A stretch of 64,000 bases of DNA from an uncultured virus (IMG/VR IMGVR_UViG_3300038321_000417) (Duplodnaviria; Heunggongvirae; Uroviricota; Caudoviricetes): IMG/VR virus record IMGVR_UViG_3300038321_000417; one strand, written 5' to 3'. Positions 3,504-41,079 of the stretch are shown here, one piece after another; position 1 is the stretch's first letter, and each line of letters starts with the position of its first letter. The notes under the pieces were generated by a model. It was not told the origin of the DNA. It ran no database searches and was given only the letters and a program-made list of their open reading frames with translations. The translations under genes were made by a program, and so were the position numbers.

Positions 3504-3731
3504 TACTTCACCCACCTTAAATAAAACTTAATTATACCTTTATAATTAAAGTATCAATTAATTATCATGTTTAACCTTTAATATCCTTTACCTTAAAAAA
3601 CAAATTCTCACAATAAAAACTAGTAATCACTCTTTAATCTTGTAACAATAAGTTTCGTCACCTCAACACTTTCTGGAAATCCTTATATGTTAATTTAGAT
3701 AAAATAAAAGGAAATTTTCCTAACTGTTAAG

Positions 3732-9654: not shown

Positions 9655-9788
9655 TGTCAGCATTCCTCTCCAAATAATAAATTTATTTCCCAAACTTTAC
9701 TTCTTTACTCTCTATGTCCTATAAAAACAATACGTAAGGAAATAATACTATCAATCCTTCGATTTTTTATTGCAATGTTAATGTATAC

Positions 9789-12663: not shown

Positions 12664-12683
12664 CCCTTTCTAAAAACACACAT

Positions 12684-14335: not shown

Positions 14336-14851
14336 TTAACTTAGCCCTATTTTTTCTCTATTTATCGGTTTTGTAACATGATATGTTTTTACAACGTCTA
14401 AGTAATCTATCAACACGTCAACAATAAATTCCCGATACTCTTTTAGGTCAAGCATTTCAGCAGGTGCAGAAACAATTAAGTACACAAATATATCTCTTGC
14501 CGCCTCTACTATAAAGTCAGCAAACACCCCGTATTGTTCTAAATCTATCTCTCTCGAAATAAAAGATACCAAACTCGTGTCTGAATTGTAAACCTTAGGT
14601 GAAAAAGATGGTTTTAGAAACAAGTTTATTATTGAATTAAATATGTTTTTCCTTATTTCCATGTTCATACCTAATTCCCTATCTTTTAAAACAGTAGAAG
14701 TATAATAAGTGTATTTTGCACAAAAAGAAAACACAATATTCTTAAAAAGTAACCCTAAATCCTCAATAGTTACTTTCTTACCTGTGCTGGTGCTTATTTT
14801 TTGAGCCATTGTTGAAAGATGTTTATACTTTCTTTTCATCATCCAGTCCAT
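14336..14851 (-). CDS. Hypothetical protein
   Basis: TAATG coupling to the helicase gene. Confidence 0.7.
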   Translation of the reverse strand: MDWMMKRKYKHLSTMAQKISTSTGKKVTIEDLGLLFKNIVFSFCAKYTYYTSTVLKDRELGMNMEIRKNIFNSIINLFLKPSFSPKVYNSDTSLVSFISREIDLEQYGVFADFIVEAARDIFVYLIVSAPAEMLDLKEYREFIVDVLIDYLDVVKTYHVTKPINREKIGLS

Positions 14852-16443
14852 TATGTCAACGCCTTTCTATATGTTCTTTCTTTTTCTTGCACTTGTCTGA
14901 TACACTCATTAAGAATACTCTCATCTAAATTTACAACCTTTTTAGCAGTATCATCCCTTTTTTTCATAATGCCCTTTACTTTTCTTGTTTCCTCTGATCT
15001 TTCTGTTAAGAGTACGTAAAACTCCTTTCCCTCTGGTTTCATTGATCTTAATATCCTACCCTCTATTTGTTTTAACTTCTGAGGATTTGTTTCAAGAGTG
15101 TACATTACACATATATCTCCGTTAACTAAGTCAATACCCCTCTTTAGGCTAGAAATTATAACATCTATTTCCCCATAATTAAACTCATTCTTAGTTTCGT
15201 TCCTTACGTTTGAATCAGTTTCCCCGTTAATAATTGCAACATTGTACCCTTGCCCCTCTAGCATGCCCTTTAAATGCTCATGTACTTGCTTGTAACGACA
15301 ATAGATTAATGTCTTTTTGTTTTTCATCCTTGTTTTCGCCAAGTCACTAATTGCCTTTAACTTAGGTACTGTTTCCTCAGATATCTCCATGTTTTTATCT
15401 ATGTACATAGGAGCATCTAAAACAAGCTGCCAAGTATGTTTCTGTCCTAACAAGAATTTTTGCTCTCTCGATTTCTCTACAAATATAACCTCTATTAAAT
15501 TCCCGTCTTCTACACTATACCCCGACAGCATTTTTCTTGAATACCCGTTGTACCTTAAAGACATTCGTGTCCTTGCCTTTTCTTCCATTCCAGCCTTACA
15601 ATCCAGTTTTTTAGGAATAAACTTTGTGTAGTCATAGGCATAGTACTCTTTTTCAAACGTTGTTCTTGCAGGTAGTAATTTTTTGTCTAGTAGATATAAC
15701 TGTGTGTACAAATCCATCAACTCTAATTCAATAGGTGTTGCATTAAGCTCAAACATATACTTTACTAATCCGCTAAAGACACTTAACTTAGACGCCAAGT
15801 CTGAACTATCCGATTTAAATACCGAAGATTCATCCACAAATAACACATTAAATACCTTGTTATAAATAACATATGTCGTGAAAGCACTTGCACCTAACAA
15901 CGAATGCGTACCTATAATAATGTCACACTCATCTATTTCTTTTAAAACATTTTCAACGTCTTTCTTCTGCCCTGTTGTTACTGCTGTTCTTAGTCCTGTT
16001 ATTCTTACAATTTCCTCTTGTAACTGATATACAGTATTTTTCTCCCCTAAGACCAAAACTTTACCTAATTTCTCACCCTCACATTTCCTCAACAAGTTTA
16101 TTATACCGCCCATTGCATGTGTCTTACCTAACCCGTAAGAGTCACCGATTAATGCTCTTTGTGCGTAATAGGCATAGGCTACATTTATTGTTTGATAGGG
16201 TCTTAACATACCTAACGGTGGCTCTTTACCAAACATTTCAAAGTAGCTTTTTTTATTCTCTATAAGAAGTTTGGCAGTCTTTTTATCTATGTTATACACC
16301 ATGTTTTCTAAAAAATCTAAACCAACTTTCGGATCAATTTTCTTTAAAGCAAGTAACTTCTTTACCTGAATATCTGTCAAGCTCCCTATATAATAGTATT
16401 CGTTTGTTTTTTCATCTTGCCAAACAGCAAGGGTTTTTGCCAT
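14851..16443 (-). CDS. SNF2-like superfamily 2 helicase/translocase
   Basis: LRPYQ, GDSYGLGKT, FVDES, LNATP, GIDL, QIEGRILR. Confidence 0.9.
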   Translation of the reverse strand: MAKTLAVWQDEKTNEYYYIGSLTDIQVKKLLALKKIDPKVGLDFLENMVYNIDKKTAKLLIENKKSYFEMFGKEPPLGMLRPYQTINVAYAYYAQRALIGDSYGLGKTHAMGGIINLLRKCEGEKLGKVLVLGEKNTVYQLQEEIVRITGLRTAVTTGQKKDVENVLKEIDECDIIIGTHSLLGASAFTTYVIYNKVFNVLFVDESSVFKSDSSDLASKLSVFSGLVKYMFELNATPIELELMDLYTQLYLLDKKLLPARTTFEKEYYAYDYTKFIPKKLDCKAGMEEKARTRMSLRYNGYSRKMLSGYSVEDGNLIEVIFVEKSREQKFLLGQKHTWQLVLDAPMYIDKNMEISEETVPKLKAISDLAKTRMKNKKTLIYCRYKQVHEHLKGMLEGQGYNVAIINGETDSNVRNETKNEFNYGEIDVIISSLKRGIDLVNGDICVMYTLETNPQKLKQIEGRILRSMKPEGKEFYVLLTERSEETRKVKGIMKKRDDTAKKVVNLDESILNECIRQVQEKERTYRKALT

Positions 16444-16444: not shown

Positions 16445-18118
16445 TTATTTCCCTACCCTCATTTCTAAGAAATTATTGAAGTAGTCAGCACCAAAATCAT
16501 TTAATACTTCCTCAAAAACGCTTTGGTTGTAATCTGAAATCATCCATTTATCTTGAACCTTTTGTAATTTCATGCGACTACCTATATTATATGCTTTGTC
16601 GTTAGAAATTATGACTTCTCTTAACCGCACTTCACATGTCAGACTTGTAGCGTAAATCCATTCTTCTACTAAAGTATATTTCTTGTCAACTTCGGATACA
16701 GATTGTAACGTCTTACGAATTTTTTCCGTTTCAACTAAACTTTTATCTTTATCAATGAAAGATACTATGCCTGAGTCGCCAACCATAGCAGTTGACAAGT
16801 CCAATAAAAATTGCTCAATGTCTTTTTTCGTTTCAGTATTGTCTGCGCCAGAAATAAGTTCAAATTCTTCTAACAAGTATAAGTTTTCTTTTGTTTGAAA
16901 CAAAGATGGCTCTTTCTTTATTACTACCTTTAAAGGCTCAATGTCCACTAATACAAATCCACCTGTTCGCCATTTAATAGTTAGTATATCCTCTTGACCG
17001 TAAACTCCATACCCTATTTTTTTATCTTTAGATTTGTCTTTTACTTCTGATACGGTTGTGACCACTAGAGTGTCTCCATCTCTACTGTAAAACTCTTTTA
17101 TGGTCGATGTAGTTAATTTATATATGTCGTTAAACATAGAGTCTAGATATGGCTCATACCTACCCGATTCTGCCATTAACTTATATAATCCAATATAATT
17201 CCTCGTGTTTAATGCCTTGTAAAAACTCTCTACAAAATTAGACAAATTAATCTTTGTGTTATCCGTAAACAACTCTGTATTTCTTAATGCTGTTTTAATC
17301 TCTCCACCGCTATACTCTATAAGATATGCCGATTCTAGTGCTAAATCCAATGTCATTGGAGATAATGCAAATATATACCTAAACTTCAAGTAGGCAGCGC
17401 TATTATCAACTTGTTCAATATTCCTTTTAGAATAGTTTATACCTAATACCCCTCTTTCTACTTGTTTTACTTCATCTTGATATGAGTATATAGGTGTTTC
17501 GTCTGTGTACACTCCCCAAGCTTTATCGCTCCCCTTACCTGTTTTTAATAAAATATCAGACACATATCTTTCTAAACGTAAACGCTTTTTTAAACTCTCT
17601 GTTGGGTCGCCTTTTACAATGTCAGGTACTCCTGAATTAGCTTTTAAAACACTTGAAGCTGTATAAGTTACGTCTACAACATAATGCTCTGAATCCCTAT
17701 CTACTCCCACTATGTCAATTTCCTTTAGCTCATACACATACTTGCCGAAATAGTCCATGTAATGAAGTATATACTTTAATGTACCATCTGTAATAAAACT
17801 ATCCGTCACTTCGCCTTTAACTAATGCCATGTTTATTTTATTAACCCTGTCTGTTAGCTTCATTTCTTCGGAGCTTTTTGCAGGTTCTAAGTTATCGTAT
17901 ATGTAATACCCCTCTGTGTCCATTATCGTCTTTATTCTATCCCCTATATCCTCTATTCCTGCCGTAACCCAAGCGTTAGCGTCATTTGAAGCTAAATGTA
18001 CCCCCAACGGAACAGAATCTTTTAGAGCATCCTCTACACCCTTGTTAGAACACCCTGTAGATAATAACACAACTAAACCGAATATAGCTAAAAGTCCTTT
18101 TGTCTTCTTTATGTACAT
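16445..18118 (-). CDS. Large lipoprotein of the transfer cluster
   Basis: Lipobox LLSTGC after basic/hydrophobic N-terminus; repeated helix + beta-hairpin segments possibly NTF2-like. Confidence 0.75.
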   Translation of the reverse strand: MYIKKTKGLLAIFGLVVLLSTGCSNKGVEDALKDSVPLGVHLASNDANAWVTAGIEDIGDRIKTIMDTEGYYIYDNLEPAKSSEEMKLTDRVNKINMALVKGEVTDSFITDGTLKYILHYMDYFGKYVYELKEIDIVGVDRDSEHYVVDVTYTASSVLKANSGVPDIVKGDPTESLKKRLRLERYVSDILLKTGKGSDKAWGVYTDETPIYSYQDEVKQVERGVLGINYSKRNIEQVDNSAAYLKFRYIFALSPMTLDLALESAYLIEYSGGEIKTALRNTELFTDNTKINLSNFVESFYKALNTRNYIGLYKLMAESGRYEPYLDSMFNDIYKLTTSTIKEFYSRDGDTLVVTTVSEVKDKSKDKKIGYGVYGQEDILTIKWRTGGFVLVDIEPLKVVIKKEPSLFQTKENLYLLEEFELISGADNTETKKDIEQFLLDLSTAMVGDSGIVSFIDKDKSLVETEKIRKTLQSVSEVDKKYTLVEEWIYATSLTCEVRLREVIISNDKAYNIGSRMKLQKVQDKWMISDYNQSVFEEVLNDFGADYFNNFLEMRVGK

Positions 18119-18828
18119 AAATAATCCTCTCCCATCTTAACATTGTAATACCGTATTACTAAAAAGTCGTCTACTGCTTTGTTTATTTCCTTTAGGGTAT
18201 AAATTTGTAAAGCTTCTTTTAATTTTACCTCTCCACCATTTTTTGAAACCCAGTCCTCTATAGGTGTGTCAGCCCCTTTAATTATATTGACTTCTTGAGA
18301 TATATTGTTTGGTTCTGCTTTCTCTTTATATACTTCTTTTACAAGCTTAACATCAGGCATACCTTTATTTTCTTTTATTATGTTCTCTTTTTTATTGATG
18401 TCTGCAACAGGATCAACCGAAATCATTTTTACTGTCTTAATTGGCTGCCTGTGAATTTTCTCTTTAATAGGCTGTTCTACTACAGGTTTTACGTTAGTCT
18501 TCAGTTTATCAGGTATTCCAAATATGTTCTCGAACCCCTCAATGTCCTCAAAATCTTCATCTGAATCATCATCATATTCAATGTCCTCAAATTCCTCATT
18601 TATATTGTCGTCTCCATACTCTATGCCGTTAAAATTTGTGCAGGTAGTCTCGTAAGTTTCTTTAATGTCAAATTCCTTTACGTCCATGTCTTCCTCAACA
18701 ACACTGTTTACTTTCTCTGTATTACCTTTTTCCTCTTTATGTGAAATAGGACTATACTTTTTTAAAATATAGTCCCCGATAACTTTTTTAAATGTACTTA
18801 TAGGAATATCTATTATTTCCATTGGCAC
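18109..18828 (-). CDS. Acidic hypothetical protein, possible C-terminal wHTH
   Basis: EFEDIEYDDDSDEDFEDIE tract; compact C-terminal domain; overlaps neighbour. Confidence 0.65.
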   Translation of the reverse strand: MPMEIIDIPISTFKKVIGDYILKKYSPISHKEEKGNTEKVNSVVEEDMDVKEFDIKETYETTCTNFNGIEYGDDNINEEFEDIEYDDDSDEDFEDIEGFENIFGIPDKLKTNVKPVVEQPIKEKIHRQPIKTVKMISVDPVADINKKENIIKENKGMPDVKLVKEVYKEKAEPNNISQEVNIIKGADTPIEDWVSKNGGEVKLKEALQIYTLKEINKAVDDFLVIRYYNVKMGEDYLCT

Positions 18829-18838: not shown

Positions 18839-20959
18839 TTAATACTTATCAGGCATGTATTCGTAAACTCTACGTAAAGCAGGGCTAGATTCTATTTCAT
18901 ACCCTTTTGACATCCATAGCCTACGTATAAAGTCAAATACCTTTTTGTTGTTCTCGTTAGAATCGGTGATTACTCCTGATTTTATAAACATTGGTTCTTC
19001 TGAACCTATTGTCATAGCCATGTCACCTTTTCTACTCAAAACATAATCAAACTTATTTGTTGTTAAATCTAATGTTGACTTAATATGATCCGTGTTACCC
19101 ATTACTGATGCTCTGAAAGGTATTACTGACTTTATTGTTTTATTCAAAAATTGATGTTTAGCAACGTGAGGAATTAAAACTGTTCTAATACCTACGTTAG
19201 GCAGCTTCGTCACAAGTATTCTTAACAGCTTGTCGAACCTCTCTTTTTCTTCTTTACCCATAGTCTCTGCAACAGTGACAACTTCATCTATAAATACATA
19301 TATTATAGGTAATTTTACTTCTGGATGCCTGTTCCTTAAATCCCAAATACTTGTCTCCTTGTATTTACCTATTATGTCCTGTCTTCTTTTACCCTCTTGC
19401 TCTACCACCACTTCTAATATGCTGTTAAACTCTTTTGAATTCCCACAAAACGCTATATTATGAGGTATATTAAAATTTAAAAAGTCCGATGTTTTATCTT
19501 TAGGATCAAGTATTATGTATTGCAAATCCTCTGGTGAAGTAAACATACTTAATTGAGTTAGTATGTTTAAGCCTACCCATGTCTTTCCACTTCGAGGCAT
19601 ACCCGCTATTAAAAGTGATTCTAAGTTTTTCAAATCCCGATATATCGGTTCTCCCTCTCCATCTATCCCCAATATAACTGGAAACGTGTTATTCGGATCG
19701 GTGAAAAATTCTCTTCCCTTTGGTGTACCTAAAAAGTCCCCTAAACTAACAAAGAAGTTTTCATTTCCAAATACTTTAATGTCGTAAAAATCTCCCCAAA
19801 GTTCAACTACCGCATTAACGTTATCCTTTTTGTTTATTTTAAAATAAGGTTCGAGTTCTCTTGCAATAGCATCTGTCTTATTCAACCCTTTAATTCTACG
19901 CATCCTTGCCCTTATATACATTTTTGTCTTAAAAGCTTCTACAAGGTAAGTGTTTTCTGCCTCTTCCACTTCTTTTGTTGACACTGCATTTATCGCCTTT
20001 GTACAACTTGTGTCAATAAAATAAAACTCATCAGTACCCTCTCTAAGTGGTTCTTCAGTTTCAAAATCGGGGGTATATTTAGGTAAAATTTTTAAGTACT
20101 TATTAAGTAAATATTCCCTATCGTAAAACCTATTAGTGTCGATACTGTCTAATTCACTTTCTACATTATTGCTGTTTACTGTTGTGTCAAAATTCGGAGG
20201 CACATATAAATCGTTTAAGTCAGGCACACCATTAAGCTCGAAGTTATCGTCAAAAAACGACGTGTCAATTACTGAATCATCTAAGGAATCGAAATCTTCT
20301 CCGGAATCATCAAACCCCAAAGAGTCTATTTCATTTGCAAAGCTGTTGTTAACCGGTTTTTCCCCAGGATCATTAGCTATATTTGAGGGATTCTTATTAA
20401 CATAATCTGCTGTAAACCCAAATACCAGTAGTAAAAATCCTGCACTAATAAAGTTAAATATAAACCAACTCAATGTGCGAATAAAAAGTATTTTCTTTAC
20501 CCCAAAAATCATTAAAAGTATAAAAATTACTGCGGCTACAGTCTGACTTACTAAAATACGTGAGATATACTTACCCCATGTTTTAGAATCTGTATTTTTA
20601 CAAAACTCAAATAGTTTCTTAACGCCACTCCATACTACTTTGAATACCTCTTTTACAACTCTAAAAAACCTATCCTCTGGATTTTCAACAGGCTTTGTCT
20701 GTGCAAATTGATTGTTAAATATACTTGTCGAATTTTCCGCACCCAAGTCCATTCCACCTAATCCACCTGTATTTGAATTAGCTCCCAAACCTAAAAAGTT
20801 ATCTAAGTCCGCTTCACCAACTAAAAAGTCCTCAAAATTAATACTGTCGTCTTCCATGCCCTCTTCATATTGGGGTGGATTCTTTATTTTGTTATGCTTT
20901 AATTTAGCATTCTCTAAATCATATGATCCTATGTTTTTTTGTAACTTATTAAAGTCCAC
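18839..20959 (-). CDS. Membrane-anchored FtsK/SpoIIIE-family ATPase
   Basis: 2 TM segments, PVILGIDGEG, Walker A AGMPRSGKT, ILDPK, Walker B YVFIDE, RKGD. Confidence 0.85.
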   Translation of the reverse strand: MDFNKLQKNIGSYDLENAKLKHNKIKNPPQYEEGMEDDSINFEDFLVGEADLDNFLGLGANSNTGGLGGMDLGAENSTSIFNNQFAQTKPVENPEDRFFRVVKEVFKVVWSGVKKLFEFCKNTDSKTWGKYISRILVSQTVAAVIFILLMIFGVKKILFIRTLSWFIFNFISAGFLLLVFGFTADYVNKNPSNIANDPGEKPVNNSFANEIDSLGFDDSGEDFDSLDDSVIDTSFFDDNFELNGVPDLNDLYVPPNFDTTVNSNNVESELDSIDTNRFYDREYLLNKYLKILPKYTPDFETEEPLREGTDEFYFIDTSCTKAINAVSTKEVEEAENTYLVEAFKTKMYIRARMRRIKGLNKTDAIARELEPYFKINKKDNVNAVVELWGDFYDIKVFGNENFFVSLGDFLGTPKGREFFTDPNNTFPVILGIDGEGEPIYRDLKNLESLLIAGMPRSGKTWVGLNILTQLSMFTSPEDLQYIILDPKDKTSDFLNFNIPHNIAFCGNSKEFNSILEVVVEQEGKRRQDIIGKYKETSIWDLRNRHPEVKLPIIYVFIDEVVTVAETMGKEEKERFDKLLRILVTKLPNVGIRTVLIPHVAKHQFLNKTIKSVIPFRASVMGNTDHIKSTLDLTTNKFDYVLSRKGDMAMTIGSEEPMFIKSGVITDSNENNKKVFDFIRRLWMSKGYEIESSPALRRVYEYMPDKY

Positions 20960-20974
20960 AACTAATACCCCTTT

Positions 20975-23017
20975 CTATTTCTTGACTACGCCTGTTTTGA
21001 ATAGTTTTGAGTTGACAAGTTCGTCTGGTAAAAATACTTTTCCTACTGAAAAATCTCGACTATCTAAACACGTAACAAACGCATATCTATAGCTATCTGA
21101 ATCTGTTCCTGCTTTATTATCAAGTATAGTTGATGTTGCTATTTTATCTAACTCTGGTTTTAAATGAGGTACTGAGAGTCTCGCCATTAAATCTTGTCTT
21201 ACTGTTGCATCCCTTATCGCACCTATCATAAAGCTAGATATGTTTCCGAATATTTTTCTATGATCATCCCGATCAGAATATAGTAAACTTGCAACACTAT
21301 TAGTAACGATTATTATTATGTCACCTAATTTCCTACCGCCAGTAACGTTTGTTCCTAATATTGCCGCTGAACCTGTAAAATCTCCCCACCTTTGATATTC
21401 TTCCCAAAGTTTAAAATTATACTTACCTAACACGTACTTACAGTATATTGATCTTTGGTAAGATAAAATAGCAGCACTAAGTTGCATTATTTTCATCTGT
21501 ACAGGATCAATGGAATCCTCTGTGATATTCTTCATATTGAATGAAATAATTACTAGTTTTGCGTCATTTATTTCATCAAGCGATATAGCATCATTAAAAA
21601 AGTCGGCACGTAACCCATCTTCCGCTAAATAAGTGTTTAACTTTACACACATTTTACTACATACACGTTTAAAGTCCTCTGACGGAATATACTTCGCTAA
21701 TCCCTTAAATGCTCCAGTATGTATAGCATCTTCTAACACAGGTAGTATATCCTTTACCGAACAGTTTTTTGATCTTACCCATGTTTTAGGATTCTTCGAT
21801 ACCCCTTTTCTTCTGTACACTTCATTTATCGCTTCATCTAGTATGTCATCTGCCCAATATTCTTCTGCGAATAATTTATCCCCTATTATGCTTTTATAAA
21901 AGAATGTTATGTACTCTATAGATTGAGTTCTTAACCCTGAATCAATGTCATCATCTCCCACTAAATCAGGTATAGGAAAAGGATCAATGTATAACCCTTT
22001 TCTCATATTAATAACCTTTACCATGTCCGGATTATCCGCCCCTATCCAATCCGCTAAAGGTGTGTATTCATCACCCTCTATGTCATTTATAGTCCCGTAA
22101 TGCCCTGTGCTTAATAACATTATAACCATGTTTTTTACGGCATAGGATTTACCCCCACCTGCTTCTGCTGTAACCAGAATTGTCTCCAAGTCTGTTTCTG
22201 ATCTTTTAAACTGTTTAAATATACTTTTTCCAGAATAGATATCCGTAACTAAGTATATTCCCGTATCTCCTACTTTACCGTGACTTAAACCCATAGTCTT
22301 AGCATAAAGAATGTCAGTGTATAGATTTTTACTTACTACTATTTTTTTATCATCTTCCTGTTTATAATTAAAAGGCATTGATGTTTTGATGTAATCTCCT
22401 AAGTCTTTTCCTATTCTTTCATAACTAAACCCGTATGACTTTAGTTGTTTCTCTAATTCAGCCAAACAGTTTTCATAGTTTACCATTCCTACAGGAGAGA
22501 TGTCCTCTGTAACCACGTTAAGCACATAAGATAGTTTTATTATATCCCTGTCATACTTCTTTTCAGCTAAATAAAGCTCCCCTAAACTCTCCCTTAACCA
22601 CTCAACTTCCTCACTATCGTCATAAGTGCTACTTAGATTATACACGTTAGCAGATTCTTCAACGTCTTCCTCTCTATTTTTCCAAGCATTTAACCTAAGT
22701 TGCATTAGTCTGCTACCCCAGTCCATATCATGTTTTGTAAAACTAGCTACTGTGTTTATACGTATGTAATCTTCTGCAACATATTCTAATGAGCTTCGTA
22801 TAACGTCAATAAGCCCATTTCTTACTGTACGCCCAAACCCACCGATTGCGTAAAATACAGATATGCTGTTATTCCCTTGAATAAAATCTTTACCCAATGA
22901 ATAACAACCCCTGTCAACACCACTTTGCAATAATATCTTACCTCGTATTGAACAAGCCAAAAAGTAATCATACATTTGTAAGTTTTCTTTAAACTTCTTA
23001 AAAATATTAAGTCTCAT
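20975..23017 (-). CDS. VirB4/TraE-like ATPase
   Basis: Walker A AEAGGGKSYAVK, DIEGDEY, IDPF, Walker B LWEEY, GRKLG: VirB4-family motif order. Confidence 0.8.
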   Translation of the reverse strand: MRLNIFKKFKENLQMYDYFLACSIRGKILLQSGVDRGCYSLGKDFIQGNNSISVFYAIGGFGRTVRNGLIDVIRSSLEYVAEDYIRINTVASFTKHDMDWGSRLMQLRLNAWKNREEDVEESANVYNLSSTYDDSEEVEWLRESLGELYLAEKKYDRDIIKLSYVLNVVTEDISPVGMVNYENCLAELEKQLKSYGFSYERIGKDLGDYIKTSMPFNYKQEDDKKIVVSKNLYTDILYAKTMGLSHGKVGDTGIYLVTDIYSGKSIFKQFKRSETDLETILVTAEAGGGKSYAVKNMVIMLLSTGHYGTINDIEGDEYTPLADWIGADNPDMVKVINMRKGLYIDPFPIPDLVGDDDIDSGLRTQSIEYITFFYKSIIGDKLFAEEYWADDILDEAINEVYRRKGVSKNPKTWVRSKNCSVKDILPVLEDAIHTGAFKGLAKYIPSEDFKRVCSKMCVKLNTYLAEDGLRADFFNDAISLDEINDAKLVIISFNMKNITEDSIDPVQMKIMQLSAAILSYQRSIYCKYVLGKYNFKLWEEYQRWGDFTGSAAILGTNVTGGRKLGDIIIIVTNSVASLLYSDRDDHRKIFGNISSFMIGAIRDATVRQDLMARLSVPHLKPELDKIATSTILDNKAGTDSDSYRYAFVTCLDSRDFSVGKVFLPDELVNSKLFKTGVVKK

Positions 23018-24334
23018 TTACGATACCTGCCTAGCCCATTGTCTAAATATACTTGCCATCCTGTCCTTATATAAATTAAACTGTAATGATGGTCTTTTTC
23101 CACTATACCCCTCTATATAAGGTATGGTGTACTTGCCTATTTTATCTACACTCGATATAACCTTGTCTTGACTTAGATTAAATGTACTGACATCTTTAGA
23201 TGAACTAACTGCTGTTAGGTATAAGTTTTTCTTACCCTGTAAATCCAGTATTGGATTTGTAGCTTTAAATCTATCTAACACAATTATACTTGTCAATCCC
23301 CTATTTAGAAGGTTATCCCATACACCCGCATTTTGTTCGGTGATATTAACTATAGGTAACTTTTCGAGGTCTTTTAAGTCTGATAAATCCTCTACAGATT
23401 TAACTACTGCTGTAGAGTTACCTTTTTCTATCCTTGTTTCATCTAAACCGTATATGTGCTTTCCAATTACGAATAGGTAAGAACCATTTTTGTTTGAATC
23501 CGCTAGAAATAATCTAAAGTTAAATAACATACTCCCCAAGTAGTTGCAATGACTGTACTCTCTTACATACAATACTTTTGTTTTACATTCTTTTACTACA
23601 TACGTGGACGGAAATAAAAACAACTTAGCATTTTCTTTATATAGCTCATTGTCAAAATTAAGTCTTTCTACAGTGCCATTAAGGTCTTCAACTTCCTTTT
23701 CTAACAAAGCAGCTTTACCTCTTTCAATAATGCTTTCTTTGTTGGCTTCATTAAGATTATTAGATAACATCTTAATTAGAGTCCTTGCTCTATCCCCAGT
23801 ATGGGTCTCGTTATTAAGCCTAGTCAAATACTCTACTAATTCTGTAAATACATATCTAGCTTTCCTACAATTAATTTTGTCTGTAAGACTAAGCTCCAAT
23901 AAACCTAACTCCCCCTCACAAAATTTTAATATGTTATCAATAGCACTCTTGACGCTTTCAACTTGTGAAGCCGCCGATTCTAACGCCTTATCATAATTTA
24001 TGCTTGTTGTGCTCTCTGCCATGTCTTTTATAAATTCAATATCATTATCTATATCAATGTAATTACCTTTGTAAAGAGTGCATATCTTGAAACCTAACCT
24101 CTTTAAATCTGAATATTCTTCGTTATCAGTTACCAAATATATATTATTTACCTGTGAGATAACTTCCAGTAATGCGTAAACATCAATTTTTTCCTGTCCT
24201 GTAGAATCGGCAATATGACAAATTATGTCATCGATCTCTGTACCCTCTAAAAGTATATACTTAATCCTTGTAAAATCGTTAACGTTTATACAATTGTGAA
24301 TACTAACAGGATAATCTGTAACCAATAAATCCAT
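23018..24334 (-). CDS. Hypothetical protein with central coiled coil
   Basis: 438 aa, GGGGAG RBS, abuts VirB4-like gene. Confidence 0.75.
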   Translation of the reverse strand: MDLLVTDYPVSIHNCINVNDFTRIKYILLEGTEIDDIICHIADSTGQEKIDVYALLEVISQVNNIYLVTDNEEYSDLKRLGFKICTLYKGNYIDIDNDIEFIKDMAESTTSINYDKALESAASQVESVKSAIDNILKFCEGELGLLELSLTDKINCRKARYVFTELVEYLTRLNNETHTGDRARTLIKMLSNNLNEANKESIIERGKAALLEKEVEDLNGTVERLNFDNELYKENAKLFLFPSTYVVKECKTKVLYVREYSHCNYLGSMLFNFRLFLADSNKNGSYLFVIGKHIYGLDETRIEKGNSTAVVKSVEDLSDLKDLEKLPIVNITEQNAGVWDNLLNRGLTSIIVLDRFKATNPILDLQGKKNLYLTAVSSSKDVSTFNLSQDKVISSVDKIGKYTIPYIEGYSGKRPSLQFNLYKDRMASIFRQWARQVS

Positions 24335-24358: not shown

Positions 24359-26524
24359 TTATAAGTGCAACATCAGAATGTCACTAACTACTGCTATAAT
24401 CATATTAAGGATACCTTTTTCTGTTTTTAACAGTCCTGTTAATGTGTAGTCCCAATTAAACAGAGGTATGCCTTGCTGAATTATTTTTAAACTACTTAAA
24501 TCCAAAGTATCAGATTCAATTGTCTTCTTTAAAAACTTTTCAAACTCAAACTTATCCAATACCTTGTTAGGCAATACCTTTGAACGCCCTATAAACAAAT
24601 CTTTTGTGTTAAAAGATAGGCTTTCAAGTTCATATACAAGCTTGAAACAACCACCTGTTGTATTCTCCGTAACTATAATATTTTCTGATGCATAGGCTAA
24701 AGCGTCAGGCAATTTATTTAACACATGTACAGGAACGTCAATAAGTATAATATCATAATCTTGCGTACTCAATATCTTATGTATTATCTTGTTGTAATCA
24801 ATACAATCGGTATTTGTACGCTCAAAATTTGTTATTAAATCATACCTTTTTAAAACTTCAATTTTGCATTCACATACTGATGAACCTGCCAAGCTTGTTA
24901 AACCCTGATGGTTCAAGTCAGTAATACTATTTAATACATTTAATCTAAACCATGTGTCACTACCCCTTATGTCCATATCTACATACAATACCCTCTGATT
25001 TAGTATTGTACTAAATACATATCCTAACAATGCCGTAACAGTCGATACTCCTTGTCCCGCTCTACCAGTGATTGTGTATACTCTTCTTCCCCCTAATCTT
25101 TGCTTTTCAAATACTCTACTTAATTGCTTAAACCCCTTGATGTGAGCTTCTTCCTGAGTCTCTGTTTTAAGATTTATGTCAACCAAATTTTCATCAATTA
25201 AAACCTTTTCACAATCAGCATTTCTAGCTTTTAACCCCGATAAGTCAAACCCGTTTTTTGCATTTAAAGGGGGAAATAGCCTCGATTGCTTAGTGCGTTT
25301 TTTAGATTTTTTATATTTATCCATACTAAAATCCGCTTCACTTGGCTTTAACGGTACTTGGTCATTAATGTGTGAATTTTCATTAATGTTAAAAATTTTC
25401 CCTTTTTCTGGAATCCCTTTATCCTCTTCTGTAGACGTTTCTTCTACACGGTCTGAACCGTATGTAACCTCGGTTTGTTCGCTATCTTGATCATTTTCTG
25501 TAACTTCTTCAAATTTTTCAGGATTGATGCCCTCTGGTTTTTGGTATAAGCTATCAAAATCAAAATCGAACGCATCAATTTTAGGGTTATTTCCCAAAGT
25601 GTCAAATTGTAAATCTTCTAAATTGCCTGTGAATTCATCTTCTTCGCCAGTGTATTCTATTTCCTCTAAAGTATCCGATAATTCTTTCTGCTGTTTTTCT
25701 TCTTCTAAGCAATCCGATATTTCTGAAACTTCATCATACGTGTCTTGTTCTTCCTCTAAGAAGCTATCTTGGTTATAATCACAAGTATTTGTCTCAATGT
25801 CTTGTTCTGTAATTTCTTCTTTGAAGCTCAAATTATCTTCATGCTCAACATGTGTTATATTTTCATCTTCAATATCATCACTTAAATCCATGTCGATAGC
25901 AAATTGCTCAAAGTCAAATTCACCTTGATCTTCTTGTTCTTCTTCACTTTCTTTATTGTCTTGGTGTTCCTCGTATGTATTCGATTCTATAGCAATGTCC
26001 TCAGTGACTTCACTTTCCGTATCATCTTCCCCAACACTCTGTAATACCATTTCGGCAATTTTTTCACTATCTGTTTCGTCTGTTAATTTTTCTATAATGT
26101 CTCTACTGTCGCCGTCTTTATACTTCTTGACTAATACCCCTTTGTCTTCTGCTAACATTTCTTCCAATATCAGCACTGTCAATGTGTCAAAATAACAACA
26201 TATAAACCCATCCTCTTCTAGTGCAATATTGTTAATAGTGTCCGCTATGGACTTGTTGTTTGTTATTATGACAACATCAATTTCTTTATCAACTAACTTA
26301 TTATCGTAAAACTCTTTTAATTCTGTAACGTCATCTATTAAGTTTTGAAACACTACACTACTTATAAAAACCCGTTCCGCATATATCGGTCTGTCTTTGC
26401 AATAAGCTAACAACTCCGCTAAAGTTTCATATTTAGCAATTACAGATATTTGTCCACATGATTCTATGTTCGTGTCTAAGCTTCCCCCATGCTTAAACCC
26501 ACATGTTATAATCTTTTTAGCCAT
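24359..26524 (-). CDS. Receiver-like + acidic linker + degenerate ParA/MinD (CpaE/TadZ-like) protein
   Basis: ATG 26524 with AAGGAG; C-terminal ITGRAGQGVST, RVLYVDMD, YDIILIDVP; very acidic middle. Confidence 0.7.
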   Translation of the reverse strand: MAKKIITCGFKHGGSLDTNIESCGQISVIAKYETLAELLAYCKDRPIYAERVFISSVVFQNLIDDVTELKEFYDNKLVDKEIDVVIITNNKSIADTINNIALEEDGFICCYFDTLTVLILEEMLAEDKGVLVKKYKDGDSRDIIEKLTDETDSEKIAEMVLQSVGEDDTESEVTEDIAIESNTYEEHQDNKESEEEQEDQGEFDFEQFAIDMDLSDDIEDENITHVEHEDNLSFKEEITEQDIETNTCDYNQDSFLEEEQDTYDEVSEISDCLEEEKQQKELSDTLEEIEYTGEEDEFTGNLEDLQFDTLGNNPKIDAFDFDFDSLYQKPEGINPEKFEEVTENDQDSEQTEVTYGSDRVEETSTEEDKGIPEKGKIFNINENSHINDQVPLKPSEADFSMDKYKKSKKRTKQSRLFPPLNAKNGFDLSGLKARNADCEKVLIDENLVDINLKTETQEEAHIKGFKQLSRVFEKQRLGGRRVYTITGRAGQGVSTVTALLGYVFSTILNQRVLYVDMDIRGSDTWFRLNVLNSITDLNHQGLTSLAGSSVCECKIEVLKRYDLITNFERTNTDCIDYNKIIHKILSTQDYDIILIDVPVHVLNKLPDALAYASENIIVTENTTGGCFKLVYELESLSFNTKDLFIGRSKVLPNKVLDKFEFEKFLKKTIESDTLDLSSLKIIQQGIPLFNWDYTLTGLLKTEKGILNMIIAVVSDILMLHL

Positions 26525-27503
26525 GTCGATTGCTCCTTTTCTTTGCTTTATGTGTGGTTTCTTCTTGTCCAAAAGGATGACTAATCATCCGCTTATTTGT
26601 TCCCTCGTAAACCTCTAATACCCTTACCATTTCTGCTGCATCTTCTATGTTAACGTTCTCTGACGACAACGCCTTTTCTAAATTACTCTGTATACCAAAT
26701 AACCCATATATAATATTCTCAATATCTTCACTGTCAACGAACGAATATGATCTGTACTTTGCTAATGTAAACATATTTGCCACGTAAATAGCATCATGCA
26801 CTATGCTTCTTAATGCCTTATACGCTGGATTACTTATAAAGAAATAATAGTCATATGTGTCGTAAGCCTTATACTCCATGTTATACTCAGCTATACTTGA
26901 AACCATTAACTTTAGTATCTCTATGTCGCACTTTGATGATTTATCCAATAACTTCTCCCATCTCGTGTCGACCGATATTGTATCCATTATGTTAATGTGC
27001 TTAACTTCCATAAACTTTCTGTCAGCTTCTTTTAAAGCATCTGCAACCTTTAGCTCATGTAAGTTTATTTCGGATTTTGAATTGTACCCTATTATCGCTT
27101 CATTTGTCAATTTAATACCAACCATGCAGTCTCCGCTTTCTAAAAACCATACAGGTACGTTATTGACAACTTCTTTTGTGTATATTGATAGTATTGAGTC
27201 TATATCCTTATTTTTATTTTCTTGCAACGTTTTATATATTTTCTTTAAATATTTTTCTTGAAACACTAAAACCCTCATAAGTTTTAGTATTATTAATGTG
27301 TATAAAACTATTCCTAAAAAGCCCCTTAATACGTTATTCCCAACTTCATTAAACATATTAAACTTAATAAGAAGTATAACCCCAAATATATACACAACCC
27401 CAAAGACTATCCCCGTAAGTGTTCTGCCTACTGTCATGTAGCCTTTTTTCTTCAATCCCTGCGCTATATTAATAGGTACTTTTAATTCCTCATAATGCTT
27501 CAT
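26517..27503 (-). CDS. Two-TM membrane protein of the transfer cluster (PrgI/TcpE-like position)
   Basis: LKVPINI start, two TM helices, cytoplasmic C-terminal domain. Confidence 0.6.
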   Translation of the reverse strand: MKHYEELKVPINIAQGLKKKGYMTVGRTLTGIVFGVVYIFGVILLIKFNMFNEVGNNVLRGFLGIVLYTLIILKLMRVLVFQEKYLKKIYKTLQENKNKDIDSILSIYTKEVVNNVPVWFLESGDCMVGIKLTNEAIIGYNSKSEINLHELKVADALKEADRKFMEVKHINIMDTISVDTRWEKLLDKSSKCDIEILKLMVSSIAEYNMEYKAYDTYDYYFFISNPAYKALRSIVHDAIYVANMFTLAKYRSYSFVDSEDIENIIYGLFGIQSNLEKALSSENVNIEDAAEMVRVLEVYEGTNKRMISHPFGQEETTHKAKKRSNRHG

Positions 27504-27506: not shown

Positions 27507-27950
27507 TCAATACCCTTGTATCTTCTGTATTTTACCATTCACATCTGTCAATATGAATACACTATAATCTTTTACAAGATTATCTACTGTAGAAGCCACT
27601 AATCTAATATTGTAACTGACAACACCAGCCGCAAAATCTACATTATACCCTGTTTCCCTTGCCTCTGCCGTTACGTATACAGCTTGTCTTTTTTTATCAT
27701 CCTCTAATAGTCTCTCTGTAACACTGTCCTCAAATTCATGTTTTTCAATTATCTTGTTTAACTCAGAAGTCTTACCGTAAGTGTATAAATCACATATCAA
27801 CCTAGCTATGTTATCACAGTTATGTTTTGCCTTTACCAATACCGTGTATTCTTTACACACTTCCGGTGCTTCTTCCTTTTCTTTTTCTTTACACCCTGTA
27901 TAAATAATCATTGATAGGAGTAACATAATAAGTATTATCTTCTTTCTCAC
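27507..27950 (-). CDS. Lipoprotein
   Basis: Lipobox IIYTGC; GTGA overlap with upstream gene. Confidence 0.75.
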   Translation of the reverse strand: MRKKIILIMLLLSMIIYTGCKEKEKEEAPEVCKEYTVLVKAKHNCDNIARLICDLYTYGKTSELNKIIEKHEFEDSVTERLLEDDKKRQAVYVTAEARETGYNVDFAAGVVSYNIRLVASTVDNLVKDYSVFILTDVNGKIQKIQGY

Positions 27951-28357
27951 AGTATTACCCCCCGTTCTGTTTTTCTTACGGATAATATATTAGCGTCCTT
28001 ATCAAAGAACACTTCCACTAAATAAACAACGCTGTCTGAATTATCTAAATAGACTAGTACCCCTTTCTTGTTCCCGTCATCTAGCATAAACACACCTTTT
28101 TCTATTACTTCACAGTTTTCTAAGCTACTTTTTGATAAGTTGTATATGTTCCCCTTGTTGGATTTAAGACTTCCACCCTCAATAAGTACATCTATCATTT
28201 TAGAAAACCCTTGCTCACATATTCCTACTTCCAACATAAAGTTAGCAACAACCGTGCTCTGTCTTTTATACTCAAAATCAGTTGAACCAGTTAGCGCTAC
28301 CATAACAAAGCACACTAACACCAAAACGAATTTATTTACCCTACCGTATTTACTCAT
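27947..28357 (-). CDS. Secreted/membrane-anchored small protein
   Basis: N-terminal hydrophobic segment; GGGGAG RBS. Confidence 0.7.
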   Translation of the reverse strand: MSKYGRVNKFVLVLVCFVMVALTGSTDFEYKRQSTVVANFMLEVGICEQGFSKMIDVLIEGGSLKSNKGNIYNLSKSSLENCEVIEKGVFMLDDGNKKGVLVYLDNSDSVVYLVEVFFDKDANILSVRKTERGVIL

Positions 28358-36774: not shown

Positions 36775-36796
36775 TCTAAGTCCCCCTATAATTTAA

Positions 36797-36832
36797 AAAA
36801 GTCTTTACCTACTGTTAGCAGGTAAAGACTTT
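36797..36832 (-). terminator. Rho-independent terminator
   Basis: AAAGTCTTTACCT...AGGTAAAGACTTT. Confidence 0.8.
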
Positions 36833-41016: not shown

Positions 41017-41050
41017 AGTAACCACCTCAACCTTTAAAAAATTAATAAGA

Positions 41051-41079
41051 AAGGACAAGGTCTTATGAACCCTGTCCTT
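41051..41079 (-). terminator. Rho-independent terminator
   Basis: Minus strand AAGGACAGGG...CCTTGTCCTT then TCTTATT. Confidence 0.75.

What the first reader, a model, noticed from the sequence alone, without database searches (positions are those of the whole stretch)
18839..23017. FtsK-type translocase beside VirB4, no VirD4 or relaxase visible
Seen: the ATPase next to VirB4 has FtsK/SpoIIIE motifs and two TM helices, and no HUH/MOB relaxase is recognisable in 64 kb. Known: pCW3 TcpA and Tn916 Orf21 are FtsK-like coupling proteins; Streptomyces TraB moves dsDNA without a relaxase. Inference: transfer could be TcpA-like with a distant relaxase, relaxase-independent dsDNA transfer, or protein secretion.
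Basis: partly seen in the sequence, partly recalled or inferred. Interest (0 to 1): 0.7.

Follow-up and report, generated by a model that had tools for sequence, protein, structure and literature searches.

The report
Diverged copy of pXO16's tip locus
These two motor genes belong to a distant relative of the "tip" DNA-transfer gene cluster of pXO16, the giant Bacillus thuringiensis plasmid, so the machine is a known but poorly understood type whose DNA-cutting enzyme has still not been identified.

Summary
ORF 18839-20959(-) is a two-TM-anchored FtsK alpha-beta motor without a gamma domain. ORF 20975-23017(-) has a VirB4 fold, though Pfam misses it. No relaxase or VirD4 family appears in 52 scanned ORFs.

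It is not a new system. Window 14.3-38.3 kb is colinear, at 20-33% protein identity, with the tip conjugation region of B. thuringiensis pXO16. It is also colinear with eight 26-268 kb metagenomic contigs that IMG/VR files as viruses.

In a 16-row tree the FtsK-like protein sits in a 100/99-supported clade with pXO16 and six of those contigs. That clade is apart from TcpA/TcpB, Tn916 Orf21, TraB, pELF2 TraD and cellular FtsK.

Six relaxase families and the VirD4 family each gave 0 of 5 matches in pXO16 and four related elements. This matches the literature, which says relaxase and oriT of pXO16 are unidentified. One complete relative shows no virion genes.

This scan found the same system before on three other genomes.

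Verdict: new member of a known kind, moderate-to-low interest. The open point is DNA processing. A ParB_N-HNH nuclease found in 8 of 9 related elements is a speculative lead.

The parts
18839..20959 (-). FtsK-like DNA-translocase / coupling ATPase, 706 aa. Low-complexity N-terminus, 2 TM helices (142-160, 166-184), acidic linker (18 D/E against 2 K/R in residues 186-265), FtsK alpha+beta motor (about 270-690), no gamma domain.
   Evidence: 33% identical to the pXO16 protein over residues 394-682.
20975..23017 (-). VirB4-like ATPase, 680 aa, no TM helix, with a P-loop around the invariant G289-K290-S291.
   Evidence: 32% identical over 649 aligned residues to the pXO16 ORF at L002 14351-16387, E 2e-93. 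The family has 151 representatives at E <= 1e-30.
23018..24334 (-). Conserved soluble 438-aa protein always found directly upstream of the VirB4-like gene. It looks like a degenerate ParA/CpaE-type fold (my reading of the alignment, not a scored match).
   Evidence: An iterated profile finds it in 10 loci including pXO16. Alignment A3. No Pfam hit.
24359..26572 (-). 737-aa protein with a C-terminal ParA/MinD/CpaE-like domain whose Walker A lacks the lysine. Probably a non-catalytic assembly or positioning factor (inferred).
   Evidence: Pfam AAA_31 at 1.6e-4 and CBP_BcsQ at 2.3e-3, both under their cut-offs. NCBIfam MinD at 2.4e-4. Motif check.
26517..27503 (-). Conserved 2-TM membrane protein, 328 aa.
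   Evidence: Found in 4 of 4 complete relatives and in pXO16. TM scan.
27507..28357 (-). Two small ORFs of 147 aa and 136 aa, the second with an N-terminal TM helix. No relatives found among the fetched loci.
28359..30278 (-). Membrane-anchored cell-wall hydrolase, 639 aa: N-terminal TM helix plus a C-terminal VanY-type D-Ala-D-Ala carboxypeptidase domain. It fills the same slot as a CHAP-domain protein in G004 and a weakly NlpC/P60-like protein in pXO16.
   Evidence: The equivalence rests on position only; there is no sequence similarity between the three.
30293..34711 (-). Giant multi-TM envelope protein, 1472 aa, with 5 predicted hydrophobic segments. Candidate channel or surface component.
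   Evidence: 25% identity over 977 residues to the 1834-aa pXO16 protein, E 6e-61. Present in all relatives. Only a weak profile hit to the Tn916-type Orf15 membrane protein, E 2.6e-4 on a cut copy and 0.1 on the whole protein.
34717..36774 (-). 685-aa membrane protein with an N-terminal and two C-terminal hydrophobic segments.
36847..37680 (-). 4-TM membrane protein, 277 aa, belonging to a paralogous family present in all relatives.
37700..38320 (-). YdjM-family membrane hydrolase, conserved at this position in 4 of 4 complete relatives. The family profile also matches the gene directly downstream of tcpH in pCW3.
   Evidence: Pfam YdjM at 9.6e-13. (profile against pCW3 36482-36976, E 6.7e-7).
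18109..18828 (-). Acidic 239-aa protein, translationally coupled to its neighbours. Lineage-specific.
16445..18118 (-). 557-aa predicted lipoprotein: hydrophobic leader ending in a cysteine, which I read as a lipobox. A possible NTF2-like, VirB8/TcpC-like scaffold, as a lead only.
   Evidence: sequence. (Atlas features, score 0.88-0.91, below a reliable level). No relatives found in the fetched loci.
14851..16443 (-). SNF2-family helicase, 530 aa, conserved one to three genes downstream of the FtsK-like gene in 9 of the 10 relatives whose fetched DNA reaches that far.
   Evidence: It was not found in L011 within the stretch fetched.
1380..5678 (-). Context: two-subunit type II topoisomerase (GyrB-like 3732-5678, GyrA-like 1380-3515), downstream of the transfer genes as in pXO16 and G004.
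39739..41058 (-). Context: clamp-loader (DNA pol III delta'-like) gene upstream of the locus, conserved in 4 of 4 complete relatives.

Best explanation
Window 14.3-38.3 kb is the transfer (conjugation) locus of a giant plasmid-like element of the pXO16 family, in which almost every gene lies on one strand. The host is probably a member of the Clostridia. The locus is orthologous to the tip locus of B. thuringiensis pXO16.

Proposed working (inferred from homology and anatomy, not shown here):
- The FtsK-like protein forms a membrane-anchored ring on the cytoplasmic face. It acts as the coupling and DNA-pumping ATPase, in the place of VirD4.
- The VirB4-like ATPase energises a channel built from the giant multi-TM protein and the small TM proteins.
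- The membrane-anchored VanY-type hydrolase opens the peptidoglycan.
- Two degenerate ParA-like proteins help assemble or position the machine.

Per the literature on pXO16, the DNA leaves as a single strand. The nicking enzyme and oriT are unknown for the whole family and are not of any catalogued relaxase type.
For: Shown here:
1. Nine window ORFs match pXO16 ORFs in the same order: 4-TM protein, giant protein, 2-TM protein, VirB4-like, FtsK-like, SNF2 helicase, a weakly matching 265-aa ORF (E 6e-4), GyrB-like and GyrA-like. Identity is 20-33% and E runs down to 2e-93. The same order is found in eight IMG/VR contigs.
2. Fold matches are VirB4 for one ATPase and FtsK alpha-beta for the other.
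3. In the tree, the window, pXO16 and six relatives form one clade with 100/99 support.
4. Fourteen genes from 37680 down to 14336 are packed with gaps of 72 bp or less, or overlap. Eight of them have predicted TM segments above a marginal hydropathy score.
5. A peptidoglycan hydrolase occupies the same slot in the window, in G004 and in pXO16.
6. No virion genes were found in one complete relative: Pfam on 150 of its 183 ORFs and PHROGs on 116 ORFs gave no head, tail or packaging family. It does carry ParM-like and ParB-like partition genes, an ArdC-like gene and LPXTG adhesins.

From the literature:
- The 25-kb tip locus of 16 CDS is involved in pXO16 conjugation. It encodes two ATPases and a cell-wall hydrolase. 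Relaxase and oriT are unidentified (PMC9673590, section 16 read whole).
Against: - No experiment exists on this element, and the window's own replicon is incomplete. The longest contig recorded for the identical VirB4-like protein is 87,661 bases and no genome is held. A relaxase or VirD4 outside the window therefore cannot be excluded for this element itself.
- Identity to pXO16 is low (20-33%).
- Several slots are filled by proteins with no detectable similarity to their positional counterparts: the hydrolase and the 239-, 557- and 737-aa ORFs.
- I could not read the primary paper on tip (Makart 2018, not held). Which pXO16 CDS belong to tip, and the ssDNA evidence, are second-hand from reviews.
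- The best structural match of the motor is a double-stranded-DNA pump, which sits uneasily with ssDNA transfer.
- IMG/VR files the relatives as viruses, with CheckV completeness up to 100%.
Confidence: 0.8

Rival explanations
1. The machinery is the same, but transfer is relaxase-independent. The FtsK-like ring pumps double-stranded DNA, as Streptomyces TraB does, or takes up DNA without a sequence-specific nick.
For: - All ten best fold matches are FtsK motors, including dsDNA-bound states.
- Six relaxase families (PF03432, PF03389, PF01076, PF02486, PF08751, TIGR03760) each gave 0 of 5 in pXO16 plus four related elements.
- PLSDB's MOB-suite typing calls pXO16 non-mobilizable.
- pXO16 is reported to mobilise plasmids lacking oriT and mob, and to move chromosomal markers (PMC9673590 passages; PMC6199540 passages).
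Against: - The FEMS review states that ssDNA transfer was shown for pXO16, and that an intact single-strand origin seems crucial for mobilised plasmids.
- A VirB4-like ATPase and about ten membrane proteins accompany the motor. pSN22, by contrast, carries traB with only small neighbours.
- The window's domain has no significant similarity to TraB: E 0.66 and a long, unplaced branch in the tree.
- There is no C-terminal DNA-recognition domain: the Ftsk_gamma family is absent in 8 of 8 family members, and the model ends in two short helices.
Confidence: 0.13
2. It is a protein-secretion system, either T7SS-like (EssC-type ATPase) or an effector-translocating T4SS, and not a DNA-transfer system.
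For: The family profile scores well against EssC/EccC chains (4nh0 96.7 bits summed over three stretches; YukB; EccC5). NCBIfam gives weak EccCb and EssC hits at 1.2e-7.
Against: - There is one ATPase domain, not EssC's several. A single FtsK domain alone scores 80.8 bits, and the fold ranks FtsK well above EccC.
- No WXG100 or FHA family is found in the window.
- The locus is orthologous to one reported as needed for plasmid transfer.
- It is linked in every relative to helicase, topoisomerase and replication genes.
Confidence: 0.03
3. The element is a jumbo phage, and the two ATPases serve genome packaging, ejection or superinfection functions.
For: - IMG/VR holds eight relatives as viral contigs, some with 'direct terminal repeats' and CheckV completeness of 100%.
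- The replication genes are phage-like: PolA, DnaB-like helicase, primase pieces, clamp loader and type II topoisomerase all match PHROGs.
- The coding is all on one strand. The FEMS review notes that a phage-like nature was suggested for pXO16.
Against: - No capsid, portal, terminase or tail family was found in G004 by Pfam (150 of 183 ORFs, E <= 1e-4) or PHROGs (116 ORFs, E <= 1e-5), nor in the window.
- The 'terminal repeat' of G004 is a 55-base end overlap, as an assembler leaves on a circular molecule.
- tblastn of the VirB4-like protein finds nothing in 50,697 GenBank phage records.
- No plaques were ever obtained for pXO16.
- Very diverged virion proteins could still escape these libraries.
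Confidence: 0.04

Closest known systems
tip (transfer of israelensis plasmid) locus of pXO16 / pBTHD789-1 (NC_018516.1), Bacillus thuringiensis sv. israelensis
   Same: - Same genes in the same order: 4-TM protein, giant membrane protein, hydrolase slot, 2-TM protein, conserved 410-440-aa protein, VirB4-like ATPase, FtsK-like ATPase, SNF2 helicase, then type II topoisomerase.
- The same one-strand coding: 408 of 421 ORFs in pXO16 and 57 of 58 in the window.
- The same lack of a known relaxase or VirD4.
   Different: - Only 20-33% protein identity.
- The hydrolase domain differs: VanY here, weakly NlpC/P60-like there.
- VirB4-like and FtsK-like genes are adjacent here (15 bp apart), whereas pXO16 has four small to medium ORFs between them.
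- The genes between FtsK-like and the helicase are unrelated. pXO16 has a SpoVG homologue there.
- The host is probably Clostridia rather than Bacillus. The only matches in species-representative genomes were an Oscillospiraceae MAG and a Clostridia MAG.
Tcp conjugation locus of Clostridium perfringens pCW3 (TcpA, TcpB, TcpF, TcpH, TcpM)
   Same: A Gram-positive transfer system that uses an FtsK-family protein instead of VirD4, together with a VirB4-type ATPase and wall hydrolases. A YdjM-family gene sits next to the membrane components in both. The tip-family profile detects TcpA at E 5.7e-11, and TcpA is the second-best fold class.
   Different: - The clades are separate, each with 100/99 support.
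- The window's domain scores 1.8 bits against TcpA.
- No TcpM-like relaxase is present. The best phmmer E among window ORFs is 0.027, not significant.
- No other Tcp protein matches a window ORF at blastp E < 0.2.
- The tip locus is about twice as long and includes a 1472-aa protein and ParA-like proteins.
Tn916 / ICE-type Gram-positive systems (Orf21 FtsK-like, Orf16 VirB4-like, MobT relaxase)
   Same: An FtsK-like plus VirB4-like ATPase pair. The tip profiles detect Orf21 at 4.4e-10 and Orf16 at 1e-5.
   Different: Orf21 lies on a long branch outside the tip clade, and its place is unresolved (39/49 support). Rep_trans (MobT) gave 0 of 5 in the relatives.
Streptomyces TraB (pSN22)
   Same: An FtsK-family motor on a plasmid that is typed non-mobilizable and has no relaxase.
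   Different: No significant similarity to the window's domain (E 0.66). TraB systems lack a VirB4-type ATPase. In pSN22, traB has only small neighbours.
pELF2 TraC/TraD of Enterococcus faecium linear plasmids (PMC13492992, passages read)
   Same: Another recently described Gram-positive system with an FtsK-type ATPase, a second ATPase and no nickase homologue. The tip profile detects TraD at 1.2e-10.
   Different: TraD has no TM helices and lies outside the tip clade. According to that paper, TraC has no sequence homology to VirB4, whereas the protein here has a VirB4 fold.
Cellular FtsK / SpoIIIE
   Same: This is the best structural match, covering both the alpha and beta domains, and the best non-family sequence match at 40-44 bits.
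   Different: There is no gamma domain, and 2 TM helices instead of the usual four or more (the latter recalled, not tested). The Walker A variant is G-[KM]-P-R-[SG]-G-K-[ST] rather than G-x-T-G-S-G-K-S. The gene sits in a mobile-element context.
'Hodor' gut megaplasmids of Bacillota (bioRxiv 10.64898/2026.02.21.707213; passages and section 7 read)
   Same: Very large gut Bacillota plasmids in which conjugation genes are hard to recognise and a canonical relaxase is missing.
   Different: Hodors have Rep_3, VirD4 and a MOBH-like HD nuclease. Here TIGR03760 gave 0 of 5, VirD4 gave 0 of 5, and no Rep_3 hit was found in G004. The paper does not mention pXO16 (0 occurrences).

Membership tests
pXO16 tip-type conjugation locus | An FtsK/SpoIIIE-type ATPase orthologous to the pXO16 one | tested here: met
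   33% identity over residues 394-682, tblastn E 3e-43. One clade with 100/99 support.
pXO16 tip-type conjugation locus | A second, VirB4-like ATPase orthologous to the pXO16 one | tested here: met
   32% identity over 649 aligned residues, E 2e-93. VirB4 fold.
pXO16 tip-type conjugation locus | A cell-wall hydrolase inside the locus (TipB in pXO16) | tested here: inconclusive
   A TM-anchored VanY-domain protein sits in the same slot. It has no sequence similarity to the pXO16 slot protein, which is weakly NlpC/P60-like at E 7e-4. I could not confirm which pXO16 CDS is TipB, because the primary papers are not held.
pXO16 tip-type conjugation locus | Colinear set of membrane proteins (giant protein, 2-TM protein, 4-TM protein) | tested here: met
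pXO16 tip-type conjugation locus | The locus is required for conjugative transfer | not testable with these tools
   Known for pXO16 only, and only from the reviews.
Canonical T4SS conjugation (VirD4 coupling protein plus MOB relaxase) | A VirD4/TraG-type coupling protein | tested here: not met
   No T4SS-DNA_transf, TraG-D_C or TrwB family in 52 window ORFs. PF02534 gave 0 of 5 in the relatives. No TrwB chain appears among the PDB sequence hits of the FtsK-like profile.
Canonical T4SS conjugation (VirD4 coupling protein plus MOB relaxase) | A relaxase of a catalogued MOB family | tested here: not met
   None in the window. Six families each gave 0 of 5 in the relatives. None in G004's 150 scanned ORFs. 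The window's own replicon beyond 64 kb is untested.
TcpA-type coupling proteins (pCW3) | Groups with TcpA in a tree or by best similarity | tested here: not met
Streptomyces TraB-type dsDNA transfer | A motor with a C-terminal DNA-recognition (wHTH) domain that acts without a VirB4-type partner | tested here: not met
   No gamma or wHTH family. The model ends shortly after the ATPase domain. A VirB4-like gene is adjacent. That TraB has a wHTH domain binding clt repeats is recalled, not from a call.
Type VII secretion EssC/EccC | Several tandem FtsK-like ATPase domains, with WXG100 substrates nearby | tested here: not met
   One ATPase domain. No WXG100 family.
Cell-division FtsK/SpoIIIE | A gamma domain that reads KOPS/SRS sequences | tested here: not met
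   Ftsk_gamma is absent in 8 of 8 family members at E <= 0.1.
VirB4 ATPases | VirB4 C-terminal ATPase fold with an intact P-loop | tested here: met
   Foldseek's top ten are all VirB4, with TM 0.72 against 4ag5. G289, K290, S291 and the W-E-E stretch at 538-540 are invariant in 15 sequences. Reading W-E-E as the Walker B equivalent is my inference.

The most novel reading that the evidence does not exclude
The pXO16/tip family as a whole processes its DNA for transfer without any catalogued relaxase. Two routes are possible.

1. A family-core ParB_N-HNH nuclease does the cutting. It is present in 4 of 4 complete and 4 of 5 partial related elements, and lies outside this window. It could act together with the SNF2 helicase that follows the FtsK-like gene in the window and 9 of 10 relatives (not found in L011's fetched stretch).
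2. The gamma-less FtsK alpha-beta motor takes up DNA non-specifically. That would explain why pXO16 can move plasmids lacking oriT, and chromosomal markers.

Either would be a new way of starting conjugation. It would be shared by a diverse set of very large elements in anaerobic Bacillota that databases currently file as viruses.
Probability: 0.2. Interest if true: 0.75.

Novelty: new member of a known kind. Interest (0 to 1): 0.35.

Why it matters
The tip system of pXO16 is one of the few conjugation machines whose DNA-processing step is unknown. Until now it has rested on a single plasmid of the Bacillus cereus group.

This window, together with the relatives fetched here, shows the same gene set at 20-36% identity in very large elements of other Bacillota. 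That gives a comparative set in which invariant genes and residues can be separated from lineage-specific filling.

Three practical points follow:
- The core list narrows the search for the missing nickase and oriT.
- At least eight such elements are filed as viruses in IMG/VR, although no virion genes are detectable in the one annotated in full.
- Standard plasmid typing calls pXO16 non-mobilizable, so this kind of element is under-counted as a route of gene transfer.

The finding itself is not new. The same reading was reached three times before in this scan, on other genomes.

Tried and rejected
- Whole genome of the window: none is held, so MOBscan-like screening of the window's own replicon was impossible.
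- Megablast of the 4.2-kb stretch against plasmids gave no match. tblastn of the VirB4-like protein against GenBank phages gave no match.
- phmmer of the VirB4-like protein against PDB sequences gave nothing at E <= 1. Only the family profile and the fold gave an answer.
- pCW3 Tcp proteins against window ORFs: nothing but the YdjM-like gene, and the TcpM-like search was negative ([empty output from a faulty pipe], 41).
- Iterated profile searches from the window's 737-, 639-, 557-, 239-, 171-, 147- and 136-aa ORFs found no relatives among the fetched loci. The genes between FtsK-like and the helicase are lineage-specific in every relative.
- The Atlas search with the 557-aa ORF gave only unnamed clusters and one NTF2-like row at 0.88, which is a lead only.
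- I checked the 239-aa ORF for an HD-nuclease motif, after reading that Hodor megaplasmids use a short MOBH-like HD nuclease. None is present. TIGR03760 gave 0 of 5 in the relatives.
- The repeat search in five intergenic stretches for an oriT-like structure gave only short, uninterpretable inverted repeats. There are no tRNA genes.
- Deep relations between the FtsK-family clades are unresolved (39/49 support, long branches for TraB and Orf21). No statement about the origin of the tip clade is made.
- Complex prediction, the look-up of sequencing runs and read laying were not used. No claim of direct binding or of expression is made.

Full report
**1. The observation**

The first carries Pfam FtsK_SpoIIIE (E 3.1e-11) and matches the PHROG 'FtsK/SpoIIIE-like' family (4.4e-26). 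A hydropathy scan gives two TM segments at 142-160 and 166-184.

Alignment with seven relatives shows a common plan:
- a short conserved N-terminal motif;
- a low-complexity stretch rich in G, Q, N and F;
- two TM helices;
- an acidic linker;
- a conserved block of about 430 residues that ends 25-70 residues before the C-terminus.

The AlphaFold2 model has a mean pLDDT of 62.5, with the N-terminal 260 residues disordered and the motor part mostly 70-90. Its best PDB matches are FtsK motor domains over about 415 columns, so both the alpha and beta domains are covered (E 2.4e-20, TM 0.76). TcpA appears from rank 17 (TM 0.60) and EccC from rank 24. No member of the family has the Ftsk_gamma family (0 of 8).

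The second ORF is invisible to Pfam. It gives only a sub-threshold NCBIfam hit to a mycoplasma ICE VirB4 (2.6e-5). A 15-sequence family profile finds Thermoanaerobacter VirB4 (4ag5) first in PDB, at E 0.0022. The model's ten best fold matches are all VirB4 chains (E 1e-11, TM 0.72). So 'VirB4' is right, but by fold rather than by an obvious motif match.

None of the 52 ORFs scanned has a relaxase or coupling-protein family at E <= 0.01. These were 51 of the 52 minus-strand ORFs of 90 aa or more, plus one plus-strand ORF.

**2. What it is**

tblastn of the FtsK-like protein against 72,556 plasmids gave, as its ten best records, the roughly 350-kb plasmid of B. thuringiensis sv. israelensis (33% identity, E 3e-43). 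This is pXO16, also called pBTHD789-1.

The neighbourhood there runs FtsK-like, hypothetical, SpoVG, helicase, then a toprim protein and GyrA. Nine window ORFs match pXO16 ORFs in the same order:
- 4-TM protein (36847-37680)
- giant protein (30293-34711, E 6e-61)
- 2-TM protein (26517-27503)
- VirB4-like (E 2e-93)
- FtsK-like
- SNF2 helicase (14851-16443, E 1e-63)
- a weakly matching 265-aa ORF (10589-11386, E 6e-4)
- GyrB-like
- GyrA-like

An iterated profile adds the 438-aa ORF just upstream of the VirB4-like gene. It is present at that position in ten loci, including pXO16.

The region of pXO16 concerned is the one the literature calls tip. [quoted passage not shown] An earlier review says pXO16 was shown to transfer single-stranded DNA by a mechanism distantly related to T4SS, as in pCW3. 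It also says the one-directional coding had suggested a phage-like nature, though no plaques were obtained (PMC6199540, passages). I could not read the primary paper.

**3. The wider family**

- The VirB4-like family has 16 members in the 90%-identity protein collection. One is identical to the window's protein, seen on 3 contigs of which the longest is 87,661 bases; four are 57-60% identical; the rest are 29-36%.
- It has 151 representatives at E <= 1e-30 among 1.84 billion proteins.
- Species-representative genomes gave only two loci, an Oscillospiraceae MAG and a Clostridia MAG.
- IMG/VR gave eight contigs of 26-268 kb. All have the giant protein upstream of the VirB4-like gene, and seven have the FtsK-like gene downstream within the fetched stretch.

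I fetched three of these contigs whole, and pXO16 as well. One-strand coding is the rule: 182 of 183 ORFs in G004, 222 of 228 in G001, 224 of 240 in G003, 408 of 421 in pXO16, and 57 of 58 in the window.

G004 is 179,785 bp and closes on a 55-base overlap. Pfam on 150 of its 183 ORFs, and PHROGs on the 116 without a Pfam hit, gave no relaxase, VirD4, capsid, portal, terminase or tail family. What it does have is:
- PolA, a DnaB-like helicase, primase pieces, NAD ligase, clamp loader, type II topoisomerase, UvrD and SbcCD-like genes;
- ParM-like and ParB-like partition genes;
- an ArdC-like protein;
- LPXTG adhesins of the antigen I/II type;
- a CHAP-domain protein in the hydrolase slot.

Eight boundary-spanning ORFs and the ORFs under 105 aa were left out of these scans.

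Families present in all four complete elements are listed below.
- In the window: clamp loader, the 4-TM paralogues, YdjM, giant protein, 2-TM protein, VirB4-like, FtsK-like, SNF2, GyrB-like and GyrA-like.
- Outside the window: the DnaB-like helicase, the ligase, a ParB_N-HNH nuclease and a 312-aa unknown.

**4. Relaxase and VirD4**

Six-frame HMM searches covered five records per family: pXO16, G001, G002 and G003 in every search, with G004 or G005 (the others) as the fifth. Each family gave 0 of 5:
- PF03432
- PF02534, the VirD4 family
- PF03389
- PF01076
- PF02486
- PF08751
- TIGR03760

Each search rang in control genomes. PLSDB's MOB-suite typing lists pXO16 as non-mobilizable. For the window's own element it stays untested.

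**5. Placement of the motor**

The window's ATPase domain gave these phmmer scores:

| Target | Score or E-value |
|---|---|
| tip family | 140-196 bits |
| three cellular FtsK proteins | 40-44 bits |
| pELF2 TraD | 21 bits |
| Tn916-type Orf21 | 18 bits |
| TcpB | 10 bits |
| TcpA | 1.8 bits |
| TraB | not significant (E 0.66) |

An IQ-TREE tree was built from 16 rows and 345 columns. PcfC and pELF2 TraC were left out because no Walker A motif was found to anchor the cut. It gives these clades:
- window, pXO16 and six relatives, 100/99 support;
- TcpA with TcpB, 100/99;
- cellular FtsK, 91/92.

The deep forks are open (39/49), and TraB and Orf21 sit on long branches. The tip proteins are therefore a clade of their own, not members of the TcpA clade. 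The tree cannot say where that clade comes from. They share a Walker A variant, G-[KM]-P-R-[SG]-G-K-[ST], against G-x-T-G-S-G-K-S in FtsK, TcpA and TraD.

**6. Mechanism**

Shown:
- homology and gene order;
- the two folds;
- predicted membrane segments in most neighbouring proteins;
- a wall-hydrolase domain in the locus;
- tight packing of 14 genes.

Inferred:
- the FtsK-like ring is the substrate-pumping coupling ATPase;
- the VirB4-like ATPase energises the channel;
- the giant protein and small TM proteins form the channel;
- the two ParA-like proteins with degenerate P-loops assemble or position it;
- the 557-aa lipoprotein may be a VirB8/TcpC-like scaffold (weak lead).

Taken from the literature: the locus serves conjugation, and the DNA travels as a single strand.

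Unknown: the nickase and oriT.

The ParB_N-HNH nuclease is in 4 of 4 complete relatives and in 4 of 5 further records. The one miss is a 26-kb fragment. It is a candidate, but it could equally serve partition or replication, and it is not in the window.

**7. Novelty**

The system is published for pXO16, and this scan reached the same reading on three other genomes. I had reached it before looking those notes up.

Full-text searches for pXO16, 'tip locus' and related terms found only the two reviews dealing with it. A search for related megaplasmid work found the 'Hodor' preprint. It describes a different class, with Rep_3, VirD4 and a MOBH-like nuclease, and does not mention pXO16. I therefore found no paper describing the Clostridia/IMG-VR relatives, but subscription journals are not covered.

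Verdict: real, correctly observed, a new and very diverged member of a known kind. Interest 0.35.

Noticed in passing
window 57587-59455 (-): An IS607-like insertion. It has a MerR-HTH serine recombinase (58838-59455), a TnpB-like gene split into two overlapping ORFs (58125-58841 and 57704-58168), and a RAGATH-18 RNA just downstream (57587-57652, 70.4 bits).
   Followed up: partly
window 37700-38320 (-); L022 (pCW3) 36482-36976: A YdjM-family membrane hydrolase sits at the head of the transfer locus in the window and in 4 of 4 complete relatives. The family profile also matches the gene directly after tcpH in pCW3 (E 6.7e-7). This may be a shared accessory part of FtsK-type Gram-positive transfer systems.
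   Followed up: partly
outside the window: G004 118072-119640; pXO16 record 143205-145073; G001 207063-208823; G003 161929-163962: A 520-680-aa ParB_N + HNH nuclease is conserved in all four complete elements and in 4 of 5 partial ones. No role is known. It is a speculative candidate for the missing DNA-processing enzyme.
   Followed up: partly
window 28359-30278; L017 3470-5320 (G004); L002 6954-9086 (pXO16): The hydrolase slot of the locus carries a different catalytic domain in each lineage: VanY, CHAP, and weakly NlpC/P60. This would be expected if the domain is swapped to suit the host's cell wall.
   Followed up: partly
IMG/VR records behind L005-L012 (G001-G008): These elements are filed as viruses, some as 'provirus' or 'direct terminal repeats' with CheckV completeness of 100%. 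Yet G004 shows no virion gene, and its 'repeat' is a 55-base assembly overlap. Whether G003 and G005 ('provirus') are really integrated was not examined.
   Followed up: partly
A2 alignment columns 40-200; window 20570-20959 (N-terminus of the FtsK-like protein): The cytoplasmic N-terminus of the tip-family motors starts with a conserved N-P-P...G..D motif. It is followed by a G/Q/N/F-rich low-complexity tract that is very long in L011 and L012 (repeated G-F-G-Q-Q-G units). Function unknown.
   Followed up: no
window 41119-53103 (-): A run of unannotated genes upstream of the locus: 250, 158, 284, 225, 316, 608 and 1458 aa, and a 523-aa protein with an SLH domain. Only the 608-aa ORF has a relative in G004. 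This may be a surface module comparable to the adhesin genes of G004 and the aggregation region described for pXO16.
   Followed up: no
window 9007-9693, 11623-13607, 56443-57369 (-): Cargo-like genes: a PilZ/YcgR-type c-di-GMP receptor, two BspA-type leucine-rich-repeat proteins, and a Fic-domain protein.
   Followed up: no
whole window: 57 of 58 selected ORFs lie on the minus strand. GC skew of the plus strand is negative in every 2-kb bin, from -0.07 to -0.34. The same one-strand layout holds in pXO16 and three relatives.
   Followed up: yes
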